Shown one piece after another: positions 1-10,629 of a stretch of 64,000 nt of DNA. Positions within the stretch are counted from its first letter, which is position 1; every line of letters begins with the position of its first letter. The notes under the pieces were generated by a model. It was not told where the DNA came from. It worked only from the letters and a program-made list of their open reading frames with translations, and did not search any database. The position numbers and the translations under genes are program-made. The DNA is from Gammaproteobacteria bacterium (GTDB taxonomy: Bacteria; Pseudomonadota; Gammaproteobacteria; Magnimaribacterales; AG-339-G14). The stretch lies in the NCBI GenBank assembly GCA_019652555.1, contig BPAJ01000003.1:14611-78610 (forward strand), read 5' to 3'.

Positions 1-270
1 AGGACGGAAAAGTCGACTATCTATTTTACTTAACTTCCAACTAGAAAGGGTTTTGTCAAAGGTTTTTAAAATATCTTGAGAGCGCATGTAAACCAAATAA
101 TCTAAAGGGGCATAACAATGAACAGATTTATTTTCTTTGTTCTCTTTTATGGTTAGTCTCTCTTGAGCTGTTTCATAAAATACGCCTCCGCCATCAAAGA
201 ATTCTCCATCTCCATGTTCAAAAAATAAGTCTAAGAGATAGTCACCTCTCTCCCCAATTTTCTTGTTCAT
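1..270 (-). CDS. hypothetical protein, N-terminal 90 codons only (continues past left edge)
   Basis: The reverse complement of 1-270 is open for all 90 codons from the ATG at 270-268: MNKKIGERGDYLLDLFFEHGDGEFFDGGGVFYETAQERLTIKENKENKSVHCYAPLDYLVYMRSQDILKTFDKTLSSWKLSKIDSRLFRP. It is missing from the ORF track only because it has no stop in the window. Its ATG shares one base with the TGA of the upstream ORF (TGATG). No family motif recognised. Confidence 0.55.
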   Translation of the reverse strand, partial: MNKKIGERGDYLLDLFFEHGDGEFFDGGGVFYETAQERLTIKENKENKSVHCYAPLDYLVYMRSQDILKTFDKTLSSWKLSKIDSRLFRP

Positions 271-906
271 CAACATCTAGCTCTGAAAATTTTCTGGGTA
301 AAAAGTGCAGAGGCATAGAACATATCTTTGTCCGTCTGTTTATCGAAATATTTTGTAAGCAGATCTTTAAAATTATCTTTTGTACAAAAAATGGGATTTA
401 TATTTTCTTTTCTAAACTTTTCTTCCAAATCTTTTTTAGACTCATCAACAGCGGCCGTGATGGTGTATTCGGGAAATAACTTGCTTATACCTGCATAACC
501 ACCTACAGATGAAAATGTTTCAGTACTGTAAACATACTTACAGAAATTAAAATATGTATTGCAAGCATCTCTATCAAGTCCAAAGAACACTACGCATTCG
601 GATTGCTCAAAATTTTGAGGTACTGTATTGATATCAAATTTATTATGAGGTTGTTCTCCGTTGTGCAAAACAAATTGAAAGTCATTGTTCGTAATAAATT
701 CATAAATGGTTTGCTTGTTTTCCTGTAATTCAACCTGATCTTGAAGGTGTATAAATATTTTTTATATCCAATACCTCCTTGAGAGTTAATGAGTTTTTCT
801 AAATATTGATAGTAAGCTTGGATGATATGAAAGTGAGAAAAAGTAGATCTACAAAAACACAAAAGTTTAAATTATCTGCTTTCAATTTAAGTTTATTTGT
901 AGACAT
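270..906 (-). pseudogene. hypothetical ~212-aa protein whose reading frame is spread over three frames (true frameshifts or uncorrected homopolymer indels)
   Basis: The ATG at 906 gives MSTNKLKLKADNLNFCVFVDLLF..., which stops after 35 codons. Track ORF 590..862 (STFSHFHIIQAYYQYLEKLINSQGGIGYKK...) and track ORF 270..668 continue it in the next two frames. The switches coincide with T4/T5 runs (838-864 on the + strand) and with the A6 run at 758-763. The 270..668 frame is closed by TAA at 762-764, exactly at that run. No known family motif. Confidence 0.5.
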
Positions 907-957
907 TAGACTTAAAAATGGATTTAATTTAATTTTTAAATTTATATCAACTTTAGT

Positions 958-1119
958 TCACTTCAAGAAATAGAACAAGGCAACAAATAAAACACCAACC
1001 ACTATAAATGCAGGGAACAAGTATTTGAGTGTCCTGATATTCAATTCATCATCGTTTTTAAATAGGTTTATCAATAGCGCGACAACCAAAACGGCTCCCA
1101 CAAAGTAAATTAAAATCAT
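958..1119 (-). CDS. 53-aa two-TM micro-protein (below ORF-track size cutoff)
   Basis: The ATG at 1119-1117 directly abuts the TAG (1122-1120) of the upstream ORF; TGA at 960-958. Product: MILIYFVGAVLVVALLINLFKNDDELNIRTLKYLFPAFIVVGVLFVALFYFLK, two hydrophobic helices joined by a short charged loop. Confidence 0.55.
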   Translation of the reverse strand: MILIYFVGAVLVVALLINLFKNDDELNIRTLKYLFPAFIVVGVLFVALFYFLK

Positions 1120-2551
1120 CTAGCTTGTGGCGCCTGCAGAGTTTAATACAGCTAATCTGTCTGTGATTGCAGATAGCTTTCTTTTTATTTCATTCACTAG
1201 AGTTTCGTCATCACTCACAACTTTCTTATGAGTTTCTAATTCATCTCTGATTTCATCTAATTCTGTCCCAATTTGAGTAGATTCTTTCATGTAATCTACA
1301 AATTTATTTAGATCAAAAGATAAACTGTTCTCTTTGACCTTTTTATTCAGCTTGTCGATACAATCTCTTAAGCTTGCTTCCAAAGATGATGAAAATAACT
1401 TGTGAATCTTATTATCAGGAGATTTTTTTCTTTTTAATACGAGAATTCTAACTATGGCCGGTGTCATAAACATGATGCCAACTCCCACAATGGAATCAAA
1501 GGCCGTTTCGGGCTCAAAGAAAACCAACACGACGGCTAAAATTCCAAAAATAACATTCCACCCGATCCAAAAATCTATTTTTTTTTGAATTTCAGGAGAT
1601 ATGGCTGGCCCTAATGATTCTTCCTTGTGGCAAAATTTTTCAAAGAAAATAAATTTGTCTCGTCATTGAATGACACATCCGCATGTTTTTCATTGTAAAG
1701 ATCAATAATAGATTTTTGTCTTGATATTTTTTTATCAGCCCACCGCTAAATCTCTGTTTAACAGATAAATCATGTGCTTCCTTAGTTACTTTGAGTTTTT
1801 CCTCAGCTGCGCGAAGTTCATCAAGTAATCTTCGCATTTCAGCTTTGTCTTCCCATCTGGTACCTAATTTTTTCTTTCCTTGTCTATTTTCTCAGCAAGT
1901 TCTTCTACCTTTACTTTAAAAGAAAGTTTTTCAGCTTGAGTCATAGTCCCTTTAATATTTTTACTCGTCTTTGTATTGGTATTTAAATAATTTTTATTGA
2001 GCTTATTAAAAGCTTCATTTTTCATTAAATTAGTTGCAAAGTTTTCTGCACTATCTTTTTTGATCAAATCAAATTCATTTCTCATTCCTTGAAAAATATC
2101 TACACCTCCTTCAAGTACTTTTATATATTCAGCTTGTTTTGCATCAAATTTATTTTGCCAATCTTTGACTATTTTTGTTTGATCAGGAAGTTTCGTTGTC
2201 TCAAGGTATTCAAGATCTCTATTAAGTTTTGCTTCTTCATTGAGTAAATCTTTTGCTTCTCTTTCTTGGTTTTCTTTGGCAATAGTTCCTTCAGATTTCT
2301 TACCTGAACAGTCTTCACACATCCAAACTGTTCTATATGTTGTGTGTGTTCTTTTTTTTGACGTTAGTAAGGATCTTTCTAAAGCTTTTTGAGAAGTTTG
2401 AAATCCTAAAATGGCACCTACAACCTCTTTGCCACCAACGGTATTTCGAGAAGTTGCTGTAATTTTTTTTGGGTGTCGTACCATGAAATTTGCCGGTGCT
2501 TGGCTTCCACAAATATTACAAGTCGTTAGTCTGTTTTTTTTTTTTCGCCAT
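1120..2551 (-). pseudogene. hypothetical ~477-aa protein with two CxxC pairs, coiled coil and two TM helices, split into 4-5 frame segments at homopolymer runs
   Basis: Segments: ATG 2551 plus the A12 run; track ORF 1864..2484 (206 aa, K/E-rich, contains CEDC); track ORF 1640..1837; an untracked frame reading RWADKKISRQKSIIDLYNEKHADVSFNDETNLFSLKNFATRKNH; and track ORF 1120..1530, whose frame is open back to 1662. The last segment carries two hydrophobic helices, IDFWIGWNVIFGILAVVLVFF and SIVGVGIMFMTPAIVRILVL. Each neighbouring frame opens only a few codons before an A-run. The net length after correction is divisible by 3 (1434 nt). Confidence 0.5.
2534..2545 (-). repeat. A12 homopolymer (T12 on + strand) starting 6 nt after a candidate start codon
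   Basis: Direct count: t2534-t2545, flanked by ctg and cgccat. On the coding strand this reads ATG GCG A12 CAG. Confidence 0.95.
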
Positions 2552-2610
2552 AGATTAATTATAGTAATTTTTGAAATTTAAAAATATATTCAAGTAAAAT
2601 AATTTGAAAA

Positions 2611-2799
2611 ATGAATGATGACCTTCTAGCTATTCTTATTGCAATCCCTTTGTGTATAGTTGCACTTGCTTGGTACTACAGTACCGATAGAGGAAAAAAG
2701 GACATTAAAGACTTAGAAAAAGCTCAACAAGATTTGAAAGCTGCACTAAAATTTGAGTCAGATTTAGAAAGCAATAAACCAAAAAAGAAAACAAATTAA
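2611..2799 (+). CDS. 62-aa N-terminally anchored small membrane protein, unknown function
   Basis: Track ORF with one hydrophobic helix (LLAILIAIPLCIVALAWYY) followed by a charged helical tail. It is divergent from the 2551 start across a 59-bp, almost pure A/T spacer. Confidence 0.45.
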   Translation: MNDDLLAILIAIPLCIVALAWYYSTDRGKKDIKDLEKAQQDLKAALKFESDLESNKPKKKTN

Positions 2800-2846
2800 T
2801 TTACTTTTTAAGTAATTCATATTTTGTACCAAAAATAACTTTTGTT

Positions 2847-3332
2847 TTAGCCTCTCAAATTTAATTGGCGCAGAGATAAGAGAAATATTCCAGCACAACA
2901 AATCAGTACCCAGCCTGGAATGGATATACCTAAGAGACTCCACATCACTTCAGCACAATTGCCATCTCCAATGAAAAATTGAATCAATGCATCTGAAATG
3001 AAGTTGTTCTCCAAAAGATAATTTAAATCAGGTCCGCAAGAGGGGACTCGATCTGGCGGTAATGATTGCAGATACAAATGCCTCACCGCGGAAGCACCTC
3101 CCACCAGACTAAAAAAGCCCGTTAGCGCTAAGTAAAACTTTCCTAAATTGTTGTGCAGTATGCCAATCAATGCTGCAGCTCCAGCTAGAGCAACAGCTAT
3201 TCTTTGCACGATACACATGGGACAGGGTTCGAGCCCAAGTTGGTATTCCATGTAAAATGCAGTGGCAATTAAACCGATGCAAGCAAGCAAAATTAAAGTT
3301 AAAACAACACGCGTTTCTTGCAGCAAATTCAT
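2847..3332 (-). CDS. dsbB: disulfide bond formation protein B
   Basis: 161 aa with four hydrophobic helices. It has the first-loop CPMC pair and a second Cys pair (SCGPD...GNCAE), as in DsbB. Confidence 0.85.
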   Translation of the reverse strand: MNLLQETRVVLTLILLACIGLIATAFYMEYQLGLEPCPMCIVQRIAVALAGAAALIGILHNNLGKFYLALTGFFSLVGGASAVRHLYLQSLPPDRVPSCGPDLNYLLENNFISDALIQFFIGDGNCAEVMWSLLGISIPGWVLICCAGIFLLSLRQLNLRG

Positions 3333-3367
3333 GGTATAAGTATAACGAAATTTAGGTAAAAAATTTT

Positions 3368-6073
3368 ATGGCAAAACCAGAAAGCGCATCAGATACCGAC
3401 TCCGTCATTCTCATCGATGGGTCATCATATGTATACCGTGCATACCATGCTTTACCGCCCTTAACGACTTCCTCTGGTCAGCCAACTGGTGCGGTAAGAG
3501 GGGTGACCACCATGGTGATGCGTATCTTAGAAGACCATCCAAATTCACCCATTGGGATGATCTTCGATGCCAAAGGCGATACTTTTCGCCACGAAATGTA
3601 TGAAGAATACAAAGCCAATCGACCACCGATGCCAGATGACTTACGTCCGCAAATTCAACCCATTTATGACATTGTTGAAGCCTTGGGTATCAAGATTTTT
3701 GTAGTCGATAACGTTGAGGCCGATGATGTGATTGGCACGCTTGCTAAGCAAGCTGAAGAAAAGGGCATTTCGACTGTGATTTCCACTGGCGATAAAGATT
3801 TGGCACAACTCGTAACTAAAAATATCAAATTGGTGAATACCATGACCAATGAAGTTCTGGATCAAAAAGGGGTGGAGAAAAAGTTTGGCGTAACCCCAGA
3901 ACAAATCATCGATTACTTGGCACTTGTTGGGGACACCTCGGATAACATTCCAGGGGTAAATAAAGTCGGTCCCAAAACTGCCGTTAATTGGTTAAGCAAA
4001 TATGGAACGGTTGAAACCATCATTGAAAAAGCTGAAGAAATTACCGGTAAGGTTGGCGAATACTTACGCGAAGGCATTGAGCAACTCAAACTCTCGCAAC
4101 AATTAACCACCATTAAAAAAGATGTCGCATTGGATTTTGGGATTGAGGATCTGGCAGTAGGAGAAACCGATCAAGCCAAGTTGCACAAGCTATTTACCGA
4201 ACTGGAATTTAAGACTTTATTAAAAAGTGCTGAAACAAAAAAAACTCCAGCAAAAAGCTCCAATGGCTCAGCTTCAAAAGACAATTACCGCGCCATTCTG
4301 AGTAAAAAAGATTTGGATGGTCTCATTAAGGAATTGAAAAAAGCCAAAGTTTTGGCTTTTGACACCGAAACGGATTCCTTGGATTTTACTCAAGCCAACT
4401 TGGTCGGTTTATCAGTTGCAACGGACGAAGACAATGCATACTACATTCCGGTAGGTCACGATTACGAAGGTGCGCCTAAGCAACTCGATCGAGACGAGGT
4501 TTTAAAAAAACTCAAACCAATTATTGAAAAGACTCCTTTGATCGGCCAACACTTAAAATTCGATCGCAATGTTTTAGCAAATTACGACATCCATTTGAAT
4601 GCTATTGAAAACGACACCATGTTGATGTCTTACGTCTATGATCCAACTGCGACCCGTCATAATTTGGATGCCATGGCGAGTCATTATTTAAATGTCAAAA
4701 CCACAACTTTTGAGGATGTTGCTGGTAAGGGCGTCAAACAACTTACTTTCAATCAGATACCTTTGGAAAAAGCGAGTGACTATGCAGCAGAAGATGCAGA
4801 TATCACTTTTCGTTGCTATTCCCATTTAAAACCAGCTTTAGCAAAGACACCTTCTTTGGAAAAAGTTCTGCATGAAATTGAATTACCCTTGGTGCCAGTG
4901 CTCTCCGATATGGAACAAGCAGGAACTTTAGTTAATGAAGAAGCATTAAAAATTCAATCCAATAATTTAGGACAACGTATCAGTGGGCTTGAAGAACAAG
5001 CTTATCGAGAAGCGGGTAAAGAATTCAACTTGGCTTCTACCAAAGATTTAAGAGCAATTTTCTTTGATGAGATGGAACTCCCGGTCGTGAAAAAAACTCC
5101 TGGCGGCCAACCTTCTACCGATGAGTCGGTTTTACAAGAATTAGCCAATCATTATGAATTACCAAAAATTCTCTTGGAACATCGTACTTTGGCAAAATTG
5201 AAAAGTACTTATACCGATAGTCTGCCGCAACAAATATCGAAAAAGACGGGTCGCGTGCATACTTCTTTTCATCAAGCTGTGACTTCAACTGGGAGATTGT
5301 CTTCTGCTGATCCCAATTTACAAAACATCCCAATCAAAACCGATGAGGGTAGGCTTATCAGAACGGCTTTTGTTGCGCCCAAGGGATATCAATTGCTAGC
5401 AGTTGATTATTCGCAAATTGAGTTGCGCATCATGGCGCATCTTTCTGAAGATAAAGGCTTGATTACCGCATTCGAAAATGGCGAAGACATTCATTCTGTT
5501 ACAGCGGCAGAAGTCTTTGCTGAACCCGGTGAAGAGGTCACTGCAGAACAACGTCGTGGCGCTAAGGCGATCAACTTCGGTTTAATTTATGGCATGTCGG
5601 CCTTTGGTCTGAGTAAAGCTTTGAATATTTCTAGACCTTTAGCTGCTGACTATATTGATTCATATTTTCACAAATACCCTGGCGTTAAATTGTATATGGA
5701 ACGCACCAAGGAGCTTGCTAAAGAGAAAGGTTATGTTGAAACCTTTTTTGGTAGAAGACTTTATTTACCTGGAATCCACAGCGGACGCAGTCGCATGGCT
5801 GCAGAAAGAGCAGCAATCAATGCGCCCATGCAAGGAACTGCTGCTGACATCATGAAAATTGCGATGATTGAAATTCATGAGTGGCTAGCCAAAGGCAAAG
5901 TTGATGCTCGGATGATCATGCAAGTTCACGATGAAGTAATTTTAGAGGTCAAAGATCAAGACGCTTCCAAAGTCGAGCAAGAAGTTTCAAAAATCATGCA
6001 AAATGCAGCGAAATTGAAAGTGCCTTTGGAAGTTGAAAGCGGTCTGGCTTCCAATTGGGGCGAAGCCCACTAG
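3368..6073 (+). CDS. polA: DNA polymerase I
   Basis: 901 aa. N-terminal 5'-3' exonuclease region, 3'-5' exo motif FDTETDSL, and polymerase motifs DYSQIELR, RRGAKAINFGLIYG and QVHDE. Confidence 0.98.
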   Translation: MAKPESASDTDSVILIDGSSYVYRAYHALPPLTTSSGQPTGAVRGVTTMVMRILEDHPNSPIGMIFDAKGDTFRHEMYEEYKANRPPMPDDLRPQIQPIYDIVEALGIKIFVVDNVEADDVIGTLAKQAEEKGISTVISTGDKDLAQLVTKNIKLVNTMTNEVLDQKGVEKKFGVTPEQIIDYLALVGDTSDNIPGVNKVGPKTAVNWLSKYGTVETIIEKAEEITGKVGEYLREGIEQLKLSQQLTTIKKDVALDFGIEDLAVGETDQAKLHKLFTELEFKTLLKSAETKKTPAKSSNGSASKDNYRAILSKKDLDGLIKELKKAKVLAFDTETDSLDFTQANLVGLSVATDEDNAYYIPVGHDYEGAPKQLDRDEVLKKLKPIIEKTPLIGQHLKFDRNVLANYDIHLNAIENDTMLMSYVYDPTATRHNLDAMASHYLNVKTTTFEDVAGKGVKQLTFNQIPLEKASDYAAEDADITFRCYSHLKPALAKTPSLEKVLHEIELPLVPVLSDMEQAGTLVNEEALKIQSNNLGQRISGLEEQAYREAGKEFNLASTKDLRAIFFDEMELPVVKKTPGGQPSTDESVLQELANHYELPKILLEHRTLAKLKSTYTDSLPQQISKKTGRVHTSFHQAVTSTGRLSSADPNLQNIPIKTDEGRLIRTAFVAPKGYQLLAVDYSQIELRIMAHLSEDKGLITAFENGEDIHSVTAAEVFAEPGEEVTAEQRRGAKAINFGLIYGMSAFGLSKALNISRPLAADYIDSYFHKYPGVKLYMERTKELAKEKGYVETFFGRRLYLPGIHSGRSRMAAERAAINAPMQGTAADIMKIAMIEIHEWLAKGKVDARMIMQVHDEVILEVKDQDASKVEQEVSKIMQNAAKLKVPLEVESGLASNWGEAH

Positions 6074-7511: not shown

Positions 7512-8115
7512 AAAACTTTTACTAGTTTTCATTTTCTCAGTCAGTTCACTATTGATTGCCGAAGATTATCAGCCAGGCAAACACTACCAGATTTTATCTG
7601 AACCCATCGCTACCAGAGATTCAAAAAAAATCGAAGTCATCGAGTTCTTCTGGTTTGGGTGTGGACATTGTTACAGCTTAGAAAATCAACTCAATAGCTG
7701 GGAGAAGAAACTTCCTGCAGATATAGATTTTTGGCGCTCACCAATCACTTGGAATGAAATGGCTAAAACGCATGCCAAATTATTTTATGCTGCAGAATTT
7801 TTCAAAAAGCCGGATATCATTGCAAGTACTTTTGTTTCCATTCATGCCAACCAGCGTATGATGACTTCCGATCGAGAGTTACAACCTTTTTTTGCAAGCT
7901 TTGGGATTGCCGAAGATCAGTACCAATCTTTGTTTAATTCTTTTGCTATGCAAAACAAAATCCGTAGAGCTGATACTTTTGGACTCAAATATGAAATCCG
8001 AGGAGTACCTGCTTTTATCGTCAATGGAAAATACAAAGTATCAGCCTCACGACAAGTTGGGACTTCCGAACTTTTGGATGTGGTCGATTACCTCATTAAC
8101 TTAGAAAGGAAATAA
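7492..8115 (+). CDS. dsbA: thiol:disulfide interchange protein DsbA
   Basis: 207 aa with a signal peptide and the active site FGCGHC. It follows cytochrome c4, as in pseudomonads, with a 20-nt overlap. Confidence 0.92.
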   Translation: MFQAFTKKLLLVFIFSVSSLLIAEDYQPGKHYQILSEPIATRDSKKIEVIEFFWFGCGHCYSLENQLNSWEKKLPADIDFWRSPITWNEMAKTHAKLFYAAEFFKKPDIIASTFVSIHANQRMMTSDRELQPFFASFGIAEDQYQSLFNSFAMQNKIRRADTFGLKYEIRGVPAFIVNGKYKVSASRQVGTSELLDVVDYLINLERK

Positions 8116-8116
8116 C

Positions 8117-8944
8117 ATGAGATACAAATCAAACCTGTTCATTCCAGGTCACACGCTCGATCGTTTGGATCGAGGTCTCAATAGCAATGCCAGTGCTCTC
8201 ATCATCGACCTTGAAGATGGTTGCCCAGAAGATAAAAAAATCGATGCACGCGAAGAATTGATTGGTCTTTTAAAAAAAGGGAACGTATTTACCAAACCTT
8301 TATTTGTAAGAGTCAACGATGCCATGAATGAAAACGGCAGACAGGATATTGATGCTTTATCGGATTTTGAAGATCAAATCGAGGCTATCATTCTTCCCAA
8401 AACACAAAGTTTTGATTTCTTAGCAACGCTTGCACCAATGATTGCATTCGAAAACAAATTAGTTCCTTTGATTGAGACGCCTAGAGCAGTCGATACCGTT
8501 ACACAAATAGCAGCATTTAAAGGAGTCATCGGTTTGTTCTTTGGAGCTGCTGATTTTTCTGCAGGTATGGGTTCTAAATTAGCATGGGAACCGCTTTTGT
8601 ATGCTCGGCATAAAGTAGCTTTGGCTGCAGCTATGTACAACCTCTTTACCATCGATGCGCCATTTTTCTATATCGATAATGAAGAAGGTCTTATAGAAGA
8701 GGCTGAAAAAGTGAAGAACCTTGGTTTTACAGGAAAAGCCGCGATTCATCCTTCGCAAATCGATTTTATCAATGATGCGTTTGAACCTACTAAAGAAGAA
8801 AAAGAGGAAGCCAAAAAAGTCCTTGAGGAATACCAAAAGATGGATGGCGGAGCTGTTAAAATTGATGGCAAAATGGTTGACGAGCCGATTGCAGAAGCGA
8901 TGCGTTTAAAATTATCTTTAGGAGATAAAGAACAGGAGGACTAG
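8117..8944 (+). CDS. CitE/HpcH-family acyl-CoA lyase (citramalyl-/malyl-CoA lyase-like)
   Basis: 275 aa with LFIPG...IIDLEDG...IETPRAV...GAADFSAGMG, typical of citrate lyase beta-like / CLYBL / Rv2498c-type lyases. Confidence 0.8.
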   Translation: MRYKSNLFIPGHTLDRLDRGLNSNASALIIDLEDGCPEDKKIDAREELIGLLKKGNVFTKPLFVRVNDAMNENGRQDIDALSDFEDQIEAIILPKTQSFDFLATLAPMIAFENKLVPLIETPRAVDTVTQIAAFKGVIGLFFGAADFSAGMGSKLAWEPLLYARHKVALAAAMYNLFTIDAPFFYIDNEEGLIEEAEKVKNLGFTGKAAIHPSQIDFINDAFEPTKEEKEEAKKVLEEYQKMDGGAVKIDGKMVDEPIAEAMRLKLSLGDKEQED

Positions 8945-8945
8945 C

Positions 8946-9464
8946 ATGTCAAAGTCCAGCAAAGATTTAGGTAACAATAGATTTAGAGAATCCTTCGGTC
9001 GTTACTTTGAAGAATTTGAAGTAGGCCACATATACGAACACCGTCCTGGTAGAACCATTACCGAGTCGGACAACACCTGGTTTACGCTTTTAACCATGAA
9101 TACTCATCCGCTTCATTTTGATAAGGAGTATGGCAAGGCAACAGAATTCGGGAAAAATTTAGTAAACAGTACTTTCACCGTATCTGTGATGGTTGGTATG
9201 AGCGTGAGTGATATCAGTCAAAAAGCCATAGCCAATCTTGGTTGGACCGACATTGTGCTTCCACATCCATTATTTGTCGGTGACACTCTATATGCAGAGT
9301 CGGAAGTTTTAGAAACGCGTCTTTCCGAATCCAGGAAAAATGCTGGCATCGTTACTGTAAAAACAATTGGTAAGAATCAAAATGGGGATGTTGTAGCTTC
9401 CTTCAAACGCTCAGCTTTAGTTCCGACCAAAGGTAATGCGGTAGACGATAAGATCGATTATTAA
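8946..9464 (+). CDS. MaoC-like (R)-specific enoyl-CoA hydratase, single hot-dog
   Basis: 172 aa with FEVGHIYEHRPGRTITESDNTWFTLLTMNTHPLHFD, the hallmark MaoC dehydratase segment. There is a 1-nt gap to the upstream lyase gene. Confidence 0.8.
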   Translation: MSKSSKDLGNNRFRESFGRYFEEFEVGHIYEHRPGRTITESDNTWFTLLTMNTHPLHFDKEYGKATEFGKNLVNSTFTVSVMVGMSVSDISQKAIANLGWTDIVLPHPLFVGDTLYAESEVLETRLSESRKNAGIVTVKTIGKNQNGDVVASFKRSALVPTKGNAVDDKIDY

Positions 9465-9465
9465 G

Positions 9466-10629
9466 TTGAAGCAATCTTTAAAAGGCATAAAAGTTCTTGA
9501 TTTAACCCACATGTTGGCAGGTCCTTACACGACTATGATTCTGGCTGATTTGGGTGCCGAAGTTGTAAAAATCGAGCAACCAAAAACAGGCGACATTACC
9601 AGAAATCTGCTGAAAGACGATCCAAAGTATTCTTTGGATGGGATCGGTGCATATCATCTAACTTTAGGTAGAAACAAAAAAAGCGTTGAATTGGATCTCA
9701 AATCTGAAGAAGGCCTAAAACTTTTCAAAGAGTTGGTCTCAGTTGCAGATGTTGTTGTAGATAATTTCAGTCAAGGCGTAACGCAGCGTTTGGGCATTGA
9801 TCATCAAAGCTTAAAAAAAGTTAATCCAAAAATCATTACCTGTTCAATCAGTGGCTTTGGCGATACTGAATTAAATCGACCTGCCTATGACAATCTCATT
9901 CAAGGTTACGCTGGAGCAATGTCCATCACAGGAACAGACAAAGAAAATCCTGTTAAATCCGGCATCCCTATAGCTGACTTAGGAGCTGGACTTTATGCGG
10001 TGATCGGTATTTTAAGCGCTATACAGTCTCGAGAAAAAAATGACTCCGGCGAACATGTGGATATTTCCATGCTGGATACTCAGGTGAGTTTATTAACTTA
10101 CATGGCTACCATGCATTTTCTCTCAGGCGAAAATCCTGAGCCGATTGGAAATCAACACATGAATCATGTGCCGTTCAATTCTTATAGAACTTCGGATGGT
10201 TTTATTCAAATAGGAGTGGTTGCTGAAGATTTTTGGCCCAGCCTCATTGAAGCGCTTGATCTAAGACAATTGGATACTGAAGAAAATAAAGTAAGAATCG
10301 GTAGACTAAAAAACAGAGAAAATATTGATGAGGCTTTGCAAGAAGTTTTTATTACCAACACCACAGAACATTGGTTGAAAATTTTACAAGAACACCGTGT
10401 TCCTTGTGGACCAATTAATACTCTTTCTGAAACTTTTGAAGACGCTGACCTATTAAAAAGAAATATGATCGTCGAGGTTCTTCAAGATAGTGGAACGTCT
10501 GTAAAAATGCCTGGTAACCCAGTGAAAATTTCTAATCACGATGAAGAATTTAGACGCTCACCAAAACTTGGTGAACATACTGCTGAAATTTTCAAAAATT
10601 GGTTAAATAAAGACATTTCAGTTGACTAA
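9466..10629 (+). CDS. family III (CaiB/BaiF) CoA-transferase
   Basis: 387 aa with a TTG start 1 nt after the MaoC stop. N-terminal signature GIKVLDLTHMLAGPYTTMILADLGAEVVKIE. Confidence 0.88.
   Translation: MKQSLKGIKVLDLTHMLAGPYTTMILADLGAEVVKIEQPKTGDITRNLLKDDPKYSLDGIGAYHLTLGRNKKSVELDLKSEEGLKLFKELVSVADVVVDNFSQGVTQRLGIDHQSLKKVNPKIITCSISGFGDTELNRPAYDNLIQGYAGAMSITGTDKENPVKSGIPIADLGAGLYAVIGILSAIQSREKNDSGEHVDISMLDTQVSLLTYMATMHFLSGENPEPIGNQHMNHVPFNSYRTSDGFIQIGVVAEDFWPSLIEALDLRQLDTEENKVRIGRLKNRENIDEALQEVFITNTTEHWLKILQEHRVPCGPINTLSETFEDADLLKRNMIVEVLQDSGTSVKMPGNPVKISNHDEEFRRSPKLGEHTAEIFKNWLNKDISVD

What the first reader, a model, noticed from the sequence alone, without database searches (positions are those of the whole stretch)
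1..2799. Orphan minus-strand gene block at the left edge: CxxC/coiled-coil/2-TM protein, 2-TM micro-protein and two unknown proteins
Seen directly: between the left edge and dsbB, all long coding capacity is on the minus strand, apart from a divergent 62-aa anchored protein at 2611-2799. The genes are chained without spacers (TAG|ATG at 1120/1119; TGATG at 272-268). Unlike every other gene in the window, none carries a catalytic or family motif I can recognise. The reconstructed 2551->1120 product (~477 aa) begins MAKKKNRLTTCNICGSQ... and has a second CxxC pair (WMCEDCSGK) about 60 residues later. It continues with roughly 250 residues of K/E/N-rich heptad-like sequence. Two hydrophobic helices follow (IDFWIGWNVIFGILAVVLVFF and SIVGVGIMFMTPAIVRILVL), then a ~100-residue helical tail (...TELDEIRDELETHKKVVSDDETLVNEIKRKLSAITDRLAVL). 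Downstream come a 53-aa 2-TM peptide, a ~212-aa protein and a further protein that leaves the window. Inference only: a cytoplasmic Cys-rich/coiled-coil module fused to a 2-TM hairpin, plus a tiny membrane partner, resembles membrane-disrupting abortive-infection effectors (for example SLATT-like 2-TM modules) or lysis-type cassettes. The flanking genes (dsbB, polA, engB, c4, dsbA) are a conserved core block, so this looks like an insertion at its edge. The system is probably only partly inside the window.
Basis: partly seen in the sequence, partly recalled or inferred. Interest (0 to 1): 0.8.

Follow-up and report, generated by a model that had tools for sequence, protein, structure and literature searches.

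The report
Broken membrane genes beside defence island
The left edge of this SAR86 window is the start of a strain-variable phage-defence island, holding an uncharacterised zinc-ribbon membrane protein with a tiny membrane partner and the start of a bacterial ligand-gated ion channel; both large genes are real and intact in relatives but frameshifted in this sequence.

Summary
The reading frames are real. In this window it needs four frame corrections.

The "212-aa protein" and the "protein leaving the window" are fragments of one gene, with six more frameshifts. Its intact 696-aa orthologue folds as a binding-protein-like domain fused to a GLIC-type pentameric ligand-gated channel.

The 53-aa 2-TM ORF is intact, starts directly after the big gene's stop codon, and is conserved in the two nearest clades.

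No Pfam, NCBIfam, PADLOC or PDB family fits the big protein, including SLATT. Its 85-residue four-Cys N-terminal domain is under very strong purifying selection (omega 0.01-0.08). The same domain occurs in small membrane-anchored proteins of uncultured T4-like phages and in TerB- or peptidoglycan-binding-domain membrane proteins. The rest of the protein differs by about 50% between strains whose core genes are 93-100% identical.

In relatives the neighbours are a KAP NTPase, a WYL-WCX regulator, RmuC and type 4 BREX.

A phage-conflict role is plausible but untested. The ten indels are either real decay or local consensus errors; I could not decide which.

The parts
2611..2799 (+). 62-aa small protein with an N-terminal membrane anchor, divergent from the big gene. 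It is conserved and belongs to the core side of the boundary.
   Evidence: ORF. It is 87.5% identical to the 56-aa ORF next to dsbB in L003. Near-identical 62-aa ORFs occur in L004 and L036. The 95.5% nt identity with L003 runs through it, to about 2595.
2552..2610 (.). 59-bp divergent intergenic region, and the point where core-level similarity between strains ends.
   Evidence: The similarity break is at about 2595. Promoter-like hexamers occur on both strands (2571-2600 plus, 2610-2583 minus), but no more often than in shuffled sequence. Relatives carry a KAP NTPase gene or its remnant inserted here.
1120..2551 (-). Big gene: a 477-aa Zn-ribbon / coiled-coil / 2-TM hairpin / helical-tail protein, interrupted here by four frameshifts.
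   Evidence: Frame analysis. Indels against the intact orthologue in L002 lie in the A12 run at 2534-2545 (+1) and near 1873, 1717 and 1628 (-1 each). Intact homologues of 474-478 aa range from 96% down to 36% identity. The AF2 model has pLDDT 87.9.
2281..2551 (-). N-terminal Cys4 zinc-ribbon domain (codons 1-90): the constant module.
   Evidence: C78, C81, M23 and R67 are invariant, and C11, C14, G15 and W76 are at least 90% conserved, across 59 diverse sequences. Omega is 0.01-0.08. It is homologous to the N-termini of TerB-bearing proteins (hhalign probability 99.7) and to small proteins on T4-like phage contigs (probability 99.2, E 7e-20).
1435..1572 (-). Two transmembrane helices (FWIGWNVIFGILAVVLVFF, loop EPETAFDS, IVGVGIMFMTPAIVRILVL), giving an N-in / C-in hairpin.
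   Evidence: Translation. Model helices 320-346 and 348-375. KK lies before TM1, there is no K/R in the 8-residue loop, and KRKKSPDNK follows TM2 (read directly from the sequence).
958..1119 (-). 53-aa two-helix micro-protein, intact, with its ATG directly after the big gene's TAG.
   Evidence: The same ORF with the same stop-start junction occurs in L002, L030, L031 and L036 (cut by the contig end), and 6 nt after the stop in L037/L038. The 55% clade (L003, L004, L005, L032) has it at 51 aa. It is degenerate in the 40% clade and absent in the 39% clade. dN/dS is 0.13.
1..906 (-). [quoted passage not shown] It is broken by six frameshifts and runs off the window.
   Evidence: Indels near 847, 763, 304, 289, 252 (2 nt) and 7, measured against L001 and L002. 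The ORF is continuous at 696-697 aa in L001, L002 and L038. The model of the orthologue P0121 matches GLIC over all 311 residues, with Foldseek E 1e-12 and probability 1.0. The N-terminal part weakly matches a LivJ-type binding protein (E 0.024).

Best explanation
**Shown**
- Positions 1-2600 are the proximal edge of a strain-variable genomic island beside dsbB in a SAR86-type genome.
- The edge holds two unrelated membrane modules.

Module 1 is a 477-aa inner-membrane protein restricted to SAR86-like bacteria.
- It has a cytoplasmic four-Cys zinc-ribbon domain, about 230 residues of antiparallel coiled coil, a 2-TM hairpin and a cytoplasmic helical tail.
- A 53-aa 2-TM protein starts directly after its stop codon.
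- The gene is a mosaic. The zinc-ribbon domain is constant and has diverged only as much as the core genome. Everything after codon 90 or so exists as old, about 50% divergent alleles in strains that are otherwise 93-100% identical.
- The zinc-ribbon domain is also encoded, as a small membrane-anchored protein, by uncultured marine T4-like phages.

Module 2 is the start of a 696-aa fusion of a binding-protein-like domain and a GLIC-type pentameric channel.
- It has no export signal.
- Its charge distribution places the sensor domains in the cytoplasm.

**Inferred**
- Both modules are phage-conflict genes of the island.
- In module 1, the constant zinc ribbon would bind a conserved partner at the inner face of the membrane, either a host component or the phage homologue. 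The swappable coiled coil, hairpin and tail, with the micro-protein, would form the membrane-acting part.
- In module 2, the channel would open on binding a cytoplasmic ligand and collapse the membrane potential.

**State in this sequence**
- Both large genes carry ten frame-breaking indels in total, so they are either inactive in this strain or mis-called in this assembly. I rate the two about even.
For: **The genes are real**
- There are 135 homologues, most of them full-length and intact, and 13 for the channel.
- Selection is purifying.

**Architecture**
- The AF2 model of the big protein has pLDDT 87.9.
- The channel model matches GLIC at E 1e-12 over the whole target.
- The NYPFD motif, in an otherwise variable part of the alignment, and the RP(Q/N)P...T.ID motif after M2 are nearly invariant across the family.

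**Mosaic structure**
- Between the window or L030 and L003, core proteins are 93-100% identical, with dS 0.12-0.33.
- The big protein is only 57% identical: 97% in the N-domain and 43-50% in the rest.
- N-domain dS is 0.37-0.41. For the rest, dS is at least 1.3 and dN is 0.42-0.54.

**Island context**
- Neighbours in relatives include KAP NTPase, a WYL-WCX regulator, RmuC, DUF4007, BrxC/PglY and PAPS reductase. Other alleles carry CHAT, NOV_C or DNA methylase fragments instead.
- The type 4 BREX gene set is as described in PMC12839542.
- A 30% identical channel homologue sits next to a WYL-WCX regulator and GmrSD in an unrelated contig.

**Link to phages**
- N-domain genes lie on contigs with a T4-type major head protein, prohead protease, UvsX, gp41 and gp46, and on IMG/VR contigs, one of 146.6 kb.
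- Profile-profile comparison gives probability 99.2%.

**Channel topology**
- Mean K+R counts are 9.7 on the pre-M1 / M2-M3 / post-M4 side and 0.4 on the other side.
- No hydrophobic segment occurs in the roughly 545 residues before M1 in any of 12 members.
Against: - No defence, toxin or effector profile matches either protein (PADLOC, Pfam, NCBIfam, PHROGs). The defence role rests on neighbourhood alone.
- The big gene was present in every locus recovered, including three reached through the channel gene. Its N-domain diverges at the core-genome rate. This resembles a resident gene more than a mobile defence gene.
- Other proteins with the same N-domain carry SPOR or peptidoglycan-binding domains, which points towards envelope biology.
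- Overall omega of the variable part is about 0.3, so positive selection is not demonstrated.
- The micro-protein is degenerate or absent in the two most distant clades, so it is not an obligate partner.
- One channel homologue sits among housekeeping genes.
- The channel model has a mean pLDDT of only 67, and lower in the channel part. No Pfam pLGIC profile matched.
- The topology is predicted only from charge and hydrophobicity.
Confidence: 0.45

Rival explanations
1. The big protein is a resident envelope or division scaffold of SAR86: a membrane-anchored coiled-coil protein whose zinc ribbon docks on a conserved cytoplasmic partner. It only happens to border the island, and its variable part diverged through linkage to island alleles kept apart for a long time.
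For: - It occupies the same position next to dsbB in every strain and species recovered.
- N-domain dS is close to that of core genes.
- Relatives of the N-domain are fused to SPOR, PG_binding_1 and TerB/DUF533 domains.
- There is only a weak, sub-threshold EzrA-like coiled-coil hit.
- No defence profile matches.
Against: - About 50% protein divergence between strains with near-identical core genes is far beyond a hitch-hiking effect on a constrained housekeeping gene (dN 0.42-0.54).
- The family is confined to four 50%-identity clusters among 1.8 billion representatives.
- In the 40% and 39% clades the neighbours are different: a probable peptide-modification gene cluster (ATP-grasp MvdD type) in one, and HD-domain and metallo-beta-lactamase-fold genes in the other.
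- If the frameshifts in this window are real, the gene is dispensable.
Confidence: 0.28
2. What lies in this window is dead DNA. The strain carries decaying pseudogenes of both large genes, and the block does nothing here.
For: - There are ten frame-breaking indels in 2.55 kb. No frameshift-split gene is evident among the tightly packed long ORFs of the remaining 61 kb.
- That remainder holds 161 A/T 6-mers and 85 7-mers. In the island 2 of 7 and 2 of 4 such runs carry indels. A uniform sequencing error rate is therefore excluded.
- Three of the indels are not single-base changes in a homopolymer run.
- Nine of the ten are deletions, as expected for bacterial gene decay.
Against: - After frame correction there is no in-frame stop and no larger deletion.
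- dN/dS against intact copies is unchanged: 0.14 for the big gene, and 0.32 for the channel gene against 0.32-0.38 between two intact copies. Substitutions therefore show no relaxation despite ten indels.
- The indel pattern (mostly shortened A/T runs, more frequent with run length) is also what long-read consensus errors look like where short-read polishing fails. Such a region would coincide with a variable island.
- Related long-read contigs L003, L005 and L030 show split genes of this kind.
Confidence: 0.45
3. The block is a SLATT-type or holin-like membrane-disruption cassette.
For: A 2-TM hairpin followed by a helical tail, a small 2-TM partner, and a defence-island setting.
Against: - No SLATT or holin profile matches at E up to 1 in the window protein or in 59 relatives.
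- No cyclic-nucleotide synthase (SMODS/CD-NTase), LOG, endolysin or spanin genes appear in any of the contexts examined.
- The full-length protein has no relatives in IMG/VR.
Confidence: 0.05

Closest known systems
GLIC / DeCLIC-type prokaryotic pentameric ligand-gated ion channels
   Same: The orthologue of the gene at 906 to 1 has a beta-sandwich followed by four TM helices. This part superposes on GLIC over all 311 residues (Foldseek E 1e-12). It carries the Pro-loop motif NYPFD and a proline-containing M2-M3 loop motif. Like DeCLIC it has an extra N-terminal domain; N-terminal domains in prokaryotic pLGICs are described in PMC9897478.
   Different: - No Pfam pLGIC profile matches.
- The N-terminal domain is alpha/beta and binding-protein-like, not the two jelly-roll lobes of DeCLIC.
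- There is no signal peptide, and charge bias predicts that the sensor domains are cytoplasmic. DeCLIC's N-terminal domain is periplasmic (PMC9897478); that GLIC's sensor domain is periplasmic too is my own knowledge.
- In two of three lineages it sits in defence-island contexts.
TerB-domain membrane proteins that carry the same N-terminal zinc ribbon
   Same: The N-terminal Cys4 domain is homologous (hhalign probability 99.7). The overall plan is the same: N-domain, coiled coil, TM helices, C-terminal helical domain.
   Different: The C-terminal tail of the window protein gives no TerB match in Pfam or in profile-profile comparison. These relatives are themselves uncharacterised.
Small tail-anchored proteins of uncultured marine T4-like phages (the gene just upstream of uvsX)
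   Same: Same 80-residue Cys4 domain, with 37% identity at profile level and probability 99.2. They are also membrane-anchored with the domain in the cytoplasm.
   Different: The phage proteins are 110-165 aa with a single C-terminal helix and no coiled coil. They gave no tblastn match (E <= 1e-3) in 50,697 GenBank phage records, and their function is unknown.
SLATT 2-TM effector domains of nucleotide-signalling defence systems
   Same: Two TM helices followed by a helical cytoplasmic region, in a defence-island setting.
   Different: No profile match and no signal-generating partner genes. The sensor here would be a zinc ribbon plus coiled coil.
Polymorphic toxin / immunity-type cassettes (constant N-terminus, swappable C-terminus, small downstream gene)
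   Same: The N-terminal module is constant. The recombination junction lies right after it. The C-terminal part is highly divergent and is linked to a small downstream membrane ORF.
   Different: There is no secretion signal and no toxin domain. The micro-protein is better conserved between alleles than the C-terminal part it would have to neutralise. This is only an analogy.

Membership tests
SLATT domain effectors | Match to a SLATT profile (Pfam SLATT_1 to SLATT_5) | tested here: not met
   No SLATT hit at E up to 1 for the frame-corrected window protein or for 59 relatives.
SLATT domain effectors | Neighbourhood with SMODS/CD-NTase, LOG or other nucleotide-signal genes | tested here: not met
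   None in L002, L003, L005, L006, L030, L033 or L037/38.
Pentameric ligand-gated ion channels (Pro-loop / Cys-loop superfamily) | Beta-sandwich domain followed by a four-helix transmembrane bundle | tested here: met
   Model of P0121: strands 403-564 and helices 567-682. Foldseek against GLIC gives E 1e-12, probability 1.0, 309-311 aligned columns of 311. Only the N-terminal non-channel part of the gene lies inside the window.
Pentameric ligand-gated ion channels (Pro-loop / Cys-loop superfamily) | Conserved (F/Y)PFD Pro-loop motif | tested here: met
   N484 Y485 P486 F487 D488 are invariant in 12 family members.
Pentameric ligand-gated ion channels (Pro-loop / Cys-loop superfamily) | Sequence-profile match (Pfam Neur_chan_LBD / Neur_chan_memb, or PDB channel sequences) | tested here: not met
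   No such Pfam hit at E up to 0.1. A family profile searched against PDB sequences at E up to 10 found no channel.
Pentameric ligand-gated ion channels (Pro-loop / Cys-loop superfamily) | Exported (periplasmic or extracellular) ligand-binding domain with an N-terminal signal | tested here: not met
   No hydrophobic N-terminal segment in any of 12 members. K+R bias is 9.7 against 0.4, which places pre-M1 and post-M4 in the cytoplasm. This is a prediction only.
Pentameric ligand-gated ion channels (Pro-loop / Cys-loop superfamily) | Pentameric assembly and ligand-gated conductance | not testable with these tools
   Needs multimer modelling, cryo-EM or electrophysiology.
TerB-domain proteins | TerB (PF05099) domain | tested here: not met
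   TerB is present in distant relatives P0149, P0154, P0158, P0182 and P0209. It is absent from the window family. hhalign aligns only residues 5-92.
Zinc-ribbon (Cys4) domains | Two CxxC knuckles on beta-hairpins, conserved across the family | tested here: met
   C78 and C81 are invariant, and C11, C14 and G15 are at least 90% conserved, in 59 sequences. The model has strands 8-10, 17-19, 24-35 and 66-77. Metal binding itself was not tested.
Type 4 BREX | Obligate co-occurrence with BrxC/PglY, PAPS reductase, DUF4007, PglZ and BrxL | tested here: not met
   Type 4 BREX genes lie 3-10 kb further left in L002 and L030 (gene set per PMC12839542). The big gene also occurs beside other cargo without BREX genes in the stretches read (L003, L005, L032), and on short contigs where none are seen (L006, L033).
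Type 1 periplasmic-binding-protein fold (N-terminal half of the channel gene, the part inside the window) | Profile or fold match to LivJ / LacI-type binding domains | tested here: inconclusive
   The family profile against 3ipc (amino-acid binding protein) gives E 0.024 over residues 29-194. The model is alpha/beta with pLDDT 80-93. The listed fold hits were dominated by the channel part.
Phage lysis cassette (holin, endolysin, spanin) | Phage or prophage context with a lysis enzyme | tested here: not met
   No such neighbours. The full-length protein has no relatives in IMG/VR. The only PHROG hit is one marginal match to a family of unknown function.

The most novel reading that the evidence does not exclude
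Two linked ideas remain open.

1. The zinc-ribbon domain is a module shared between SAR86 hosts and their T4-like phages. The host protein would use the constant domain to detect, or be targeted by, the phage homologue. Its swappable coiled-coil and hairpin cassette, with the micro-protein, would be the membrane effector.

2. The neighbouring gene encodes an inside-out pentameric ligand-gated channel whose sensor domains face the cytoplasm. It would act as an abortive-infection effector opened by an intracellular ligand.

Either would be a kind of defence effector not described before.
Probability: 0.2. Interest if true: 0.85.

Novelty: new variant of a known kind. Interest (0 to 1): 0.55.

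Why it matters
SAR86 is one of the most abundant uncultured bacterial groups in the surface ocean, and almost nothing is known about how it resists phages.

- **An island insertion site.** The locus marks a hot spot for island insertion beside dsbB.
- **An unusual channel.** It shows a ligand-gated channel homologue that apparently has its sensor domains inside the cell. If confirmed, this would widen the known design space of the Cys-loop receptor superfamily and suggest a new type of defence effector.
- **A domain shared by host and phage.** The uncharacterised zinc-ribbon domain occurs both in host membrane proteins and in T4-like phage proteins. It offers a concrete handle for finding host-phage protein contacts in an uncultured system.
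- **A caution for scans like this one.** Ten indels confined to the variable edge of an otherwise clean window can make one gene look like several orphan ORFs.

Tried and rejected
**Profile and structure searches that found nothing**
- Pfam, NCBIfam, PADLOC and PHROGs scans of the window proteins and intact orthologues gave nothing above threshold for the big protein, the micro-protein or the channel gene.
- PDB sequence searches with four family profiles gave nothing for the zinc-ribbon domain or the channel.
- Foldseek of the big-protein model against PDB and BFVD returned only coiled-coil noise (MukB elbow, SMC/SbcC). It also returned weak local hits of the N-domain to ribosomal protein eS26 (E 0.4-1), which I do not rely on.
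- The afdb50 library was unavailable.

**Look-ups that failed or led nowhere**
- The exact-protein look-up of the window's DsbB failed, so the source assembly is not in that collection.
- The left flank was instead taken from a 95% identical SAR86 single-cell genome.
- tblastn of host and phage-contig N-domains against 50,697 GenBank phage records gave no match.
- IMG/VR scans for the full-length big protein and for the channel gave no relatives.
- A search seeded with a TerB-bearing relative returned only the query itself, on a 1.7-kb contig.
- The Rfam and repeat scans of 1-3400 gave nothing meaningful, and the promoter and terminator scans gave counts at or below those in shuffled sequence.
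- Fragmentary database proteins were checked for the same frameshifts as the window. They are contig-end partials, adapter chimeras or other noisy copies.

**Ideas rejected**
- A TerB identity for the C-terminal tail.
- Uniform sequencing error as the cause of the frameshifts.
- Phase variation at the 5' A-run, because short-read assemblies all have in-frame A9 or A10 runs.

**Literature**
- Searches for a pentameric channel in phage defence, and for TerB plus zinc-ribbon proteins, found nothing.

Full report
**1. What is in the sequence**

Positions 1-2600 are about 28-35% G+C, against about 36-45% in the next 9 kb of the window. The long ORFs there are all on the minus strand. A 62-aa ORF with a hydrophobic N-terminus lies at 2611-2799 on the plus strand, and dsbB lies at 2847-3332.

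A six-frame translation shows it is spread over three frames.

An exact 40-mer search located a 95% identical relative, a SAR86 single-cell genome (L001). A protein search then gave an intact orthologous locus (L002). Alignment of the window to L002 shows 95.4% nucleotide identity and ten frame-breaking indels:
- Four are in the big gene: +1 in the A12 run at 2534-2545, and -1 near 1873, 1717 and 1628.
- Six are in the next large gene: near 847, 763, 304, 289, 252 (2 nt) and 7.

The 53-aa ORF at 958-1119 is intact, and its ATG directly follows the big gene's TAG.

**2. The two "unknown proteins" are one gene**

In L001 the region matching window positions 906 to 1 and beyond is a single 697-aa ORF. 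In L002, L037 and L038 it is called as 696 aa. The "TGATG" junction at 272-268 is a frameshift inside this gene.

The family has 13 clusters in the 5.8-billion-protein collection. An AlphaFold model of the orthologue P0121 (mean pLDDT 67) shows three parts:
- a confident alpha/beta domain at residues 1-340;
- a beta-sandwich at 403-564;
- four helices at 567-682.

Foldseek matches the beta-sandwich and helices to GLIC over the full 311 residues, with E 1e-12 and probability 1.0. The Pro-loop motif NYPFD is invariant across the family, and the RP(Q/N)P...T.ID motif after M2 nearly so. No Pfam channel profile matches. The N-terminal domain weakly matches a LivJ-type binding protein (E 0.024).

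None of the 12 members has a hydrophobic N-terminal segment. Lys+Arg counts average 9.7 on the pre-M1, M2-M3 and post-M4 side against 0.4 on the other side. I therefore predict that the sensor domains are cytoplasmic. DeCLIC's N-terminal domain is periplasmic (PMC9897478); that GLIC's is too is my own knowledge. Only the first 300 or so codons of this gene lie in the window.

**3. The big protein**

After frame correction it is 96% identical over its full length to intact 477-aa proteins. Homologues of 474-522 aa range down to 36% identity. A search of 1.84 billion representatives found only four full-length clusters, so the family is narrow.

The model (pLDDT 87.9) shows:
- a small beta/alpha N-terminal domain (residues 1-85);
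- a 91-residue helix and returning helices (87-286);
- a conserved beta-hairpin (292-305);
- two TM helices (320-375);
- two long C-terminal helices.

Charges place both ends in the cytoplasm. No Pfam, NCBIfam, PADLOC, PDB-sequence or fold match was found beyond coiled-coil noise.

**4. The N-terminal domain is a wider, uncharacterised module**

The profile search recovered more than 100 other proteins that share only residues 5-85 or so. C78, C81, M23 and R67 are invariant, and C11, C14, G15 and W76 are at least 90% conserved. These proteins fall into three groups:
- 80-165-aa proteins, many with one C-terminal hydrophobic helix;
- proteins of about 500 aa with a coiled coil, TM helices and a C-terminal TerB domain;
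- a few with SPOR or peptidoglycan-binding domains.

Profile-profile comparison confirms homology for the N-domain only (probability 99.7).

Loci fetched for the small versions are T4-like phage contigs. They carry a prohead protease, the major head protein, a UvsW-type helicase, gp46, UvsX, gp41 and RNase H. Some are IMG/VR contigs, one of 146.6 kb. Comparison of the host family with the phage set gives probability 99.2% and E 7e-20. A tblastn search (E <= 1e-3) found no GenBank phage record with it.

**5. Context and population genetics**

In every locus that extends far enough, the big gene sits between dsbB (with the small anchored ORF) and variable cargo.
- A KAP NTPase gene or its remnant is inserted upstream in some strains.
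- Downstream cargo differs by allele. One set has the channel gene, two further genes, a HAD phosphatase, a WYL-WCX regulator, RmuC, DUF4007, BrxC/PglY and PAPS reductase; the last three are components of type 4 BREX as described in PMC12839542.
- Another set has methylase and ATPase fragments, DUF4420, NOV_C or CHAT.
- In the 40% and 39% clades the neighbours are unrelated.
- In L036 a 56% identical channel gene lies on the other side, between dsbB and the 62-aa ORF.

Core proteins of the window and L003 are 93-100% identical, yet the big protein is only 57% identical: 97% in the N-domain and 43-50% elsewhere. Between allele classes the N-domain has dS 0.37-0.41 and omega 0.04-0.05, similar to core genes. 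The remainder has dS of at least 1.3 and dN 0.42-0.54. The gene is therefore a mosaic, with the boundary of the variable region just after codon 90.

The micro-ORF is kept in the two nearer clades, with the same junction to the big gene's stop codon or a 6-nt gap (L037/L038), and has dN/dS 0.13. It is degenerate in the 40% clade and absent in the 39% clade.

**6. The frameshifts**

No frameshift-split gene is evident among the tightly packed long ORFs in the other 61 kb. That part has 161 A/T 6-mers and 85 7-mers. In the island, 2 of 7 and 2 of 4 such runs carry indels. A uniform error rate is therefore excluded.

After frame correction there are no stop codons, and dN/dS is the same as between intact copies. 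Two readings fit these facts:
- very recent decay driven by slippage in homopolymer runs;
- a long-read consensus left unpolished where population short reads do not map, which would be exactly the variable island.

Related long-read contigs show split genes of this kind. I could not decide between the two readings.

**7. Interpretation**

The anatomy is secure. The function is inferred. I favour a phage-conflict role for both modules (about 45%). The reasons are the defence-island setting, the allelic hypervariability of the big protein, the phage-encoded homologues of its constant domain, and the recurrence of the channel gene next to WYL-WCX regulators in unrelated lineages.

The main rival is a resident envelope or division scaffold (about 28%). 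It is supported by the gene's constant presence and position and by the SPOR and peptidoglycan-binding relatives.

The finding is real and moderately interesting, but in this window it is incomplete and broken.

Noticed in passing
L001 2195-4668 (left of the window); also L002 6220-8684 and L038 6478-8966: A convergent pair of unknown genes travels with the channel gene in L001, L002 and L038 but is missing in L030. One is a 532-535-aa protein with an N-terminal hydrophobic segment, a coiled coil and a central TM helix. The other is a 289-296-aa protein starting with a CxxC...C zinc-ribbon-like motif. Neither matches any family.
   Followed up: partly
L002 9697-13923; L030 14879-21431: A WYL-WCX regulator, RmuC, DUF4007, BrxC/PglY and PAPS reductase lie a few kb to the left of the window in close relatives. 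DUF4007, BrxC/PglY and PAPS reductase are type 4 BREX components. Other strains carry different cargo at the same site (methylase fragments, DUF4420, NOV_C, CHAT).
   Followed up: partly
L002 294-2441; remnants at L030 9675-9953, L031 128-406, L003 about 8000-9950 and L005 8093-9513: A KAP-family NTPase gene is inserted between the small anchored ORF and the big gene. It is full length in one strain, reduced to remnants in others, and absent from the window. This is a second sign that the site turns over quickly.
   Followed up: partly
P0081, P0109, P0112 (alignment A1 columns 201-236): Some 55%-clade alleles carry a 34-residue insertion in the coiled coil (ATSRNTVSGKEVVGGKEIIGSLLGNEASQRALERA). 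It duplicates the central segment of the zinc-ribbon domain, which suggests that this segment is a functional unit of its own.
   Followed up: no
L018 20-355, L019 85-420, L027 5980-6318: In T4-like phage contigs the small zinc-ribbon / tail-anchor gene sits immediately upstream of uvsX in L018 and L027, and one gene (a 330-aa ORF) upstream of it in L019. The order in L027 is: this gene, uvsX, a 102-aa gene, then the gp41 helicase. A tblastn search (E <= 1e-3) found no sequenced GenBank phage with it.
   Followed up: partly
model m61e314fd2014, residues 1-85: There are repeated weak local Foldseek matches of the N-domain to eukaryotic ribosomal protein eS26 (probability 0.6-0.87, E 0.4-1, about 81 aligned columns). 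From memory, eS26 is also a Cys4 protein with widely spaced CxxC pairs. The matches are not significant.
   Followed up: no
L010 2776-8509, L011, L012: A 30% identical homologue of the channel gene lies next to a 254-aa unknown gene, a WYL-WCX regulator, GmrSD and a TerB protein. The contig also encodes a Por_Secre_tail protein, so it is probably from Bacteroidota. This indicates transfer between phyla into another defence neighbourhood.
   Followed up: partly
L006-L009, downstream of the 40%-clade big gene: Downstream of the 40%-clade big gene lie an ATP-grasp (MvdD-type) gene with several small ORFs, a TM2-domain protein and tRNA-Ala(TGC). This looks like a peptide-modification gene cluster (RiPP-like), an entirely different neighbourhood.
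   Followed up: no
L003, L005, L032 (contig names ending in '_pilon'); L030: These long-read contigs split polA and other core genes into several pieces. Truncated or N-terminally altered database copies of the big protein (P0102, P0105-P0110, P0118) are therefore likely to be assembly errors, not variants.
   Followed up: partly
window 2534-2545: The Lys-codon A-run at the 5' end of the big gene is A12 here, against A9-A10 in all short-read assemblies. It combines a T-to-A change with one extra A and stops translation after 11 codons. An internal ATG at 2484 would give a product lacking the first CxxC.
   Followed up: yes
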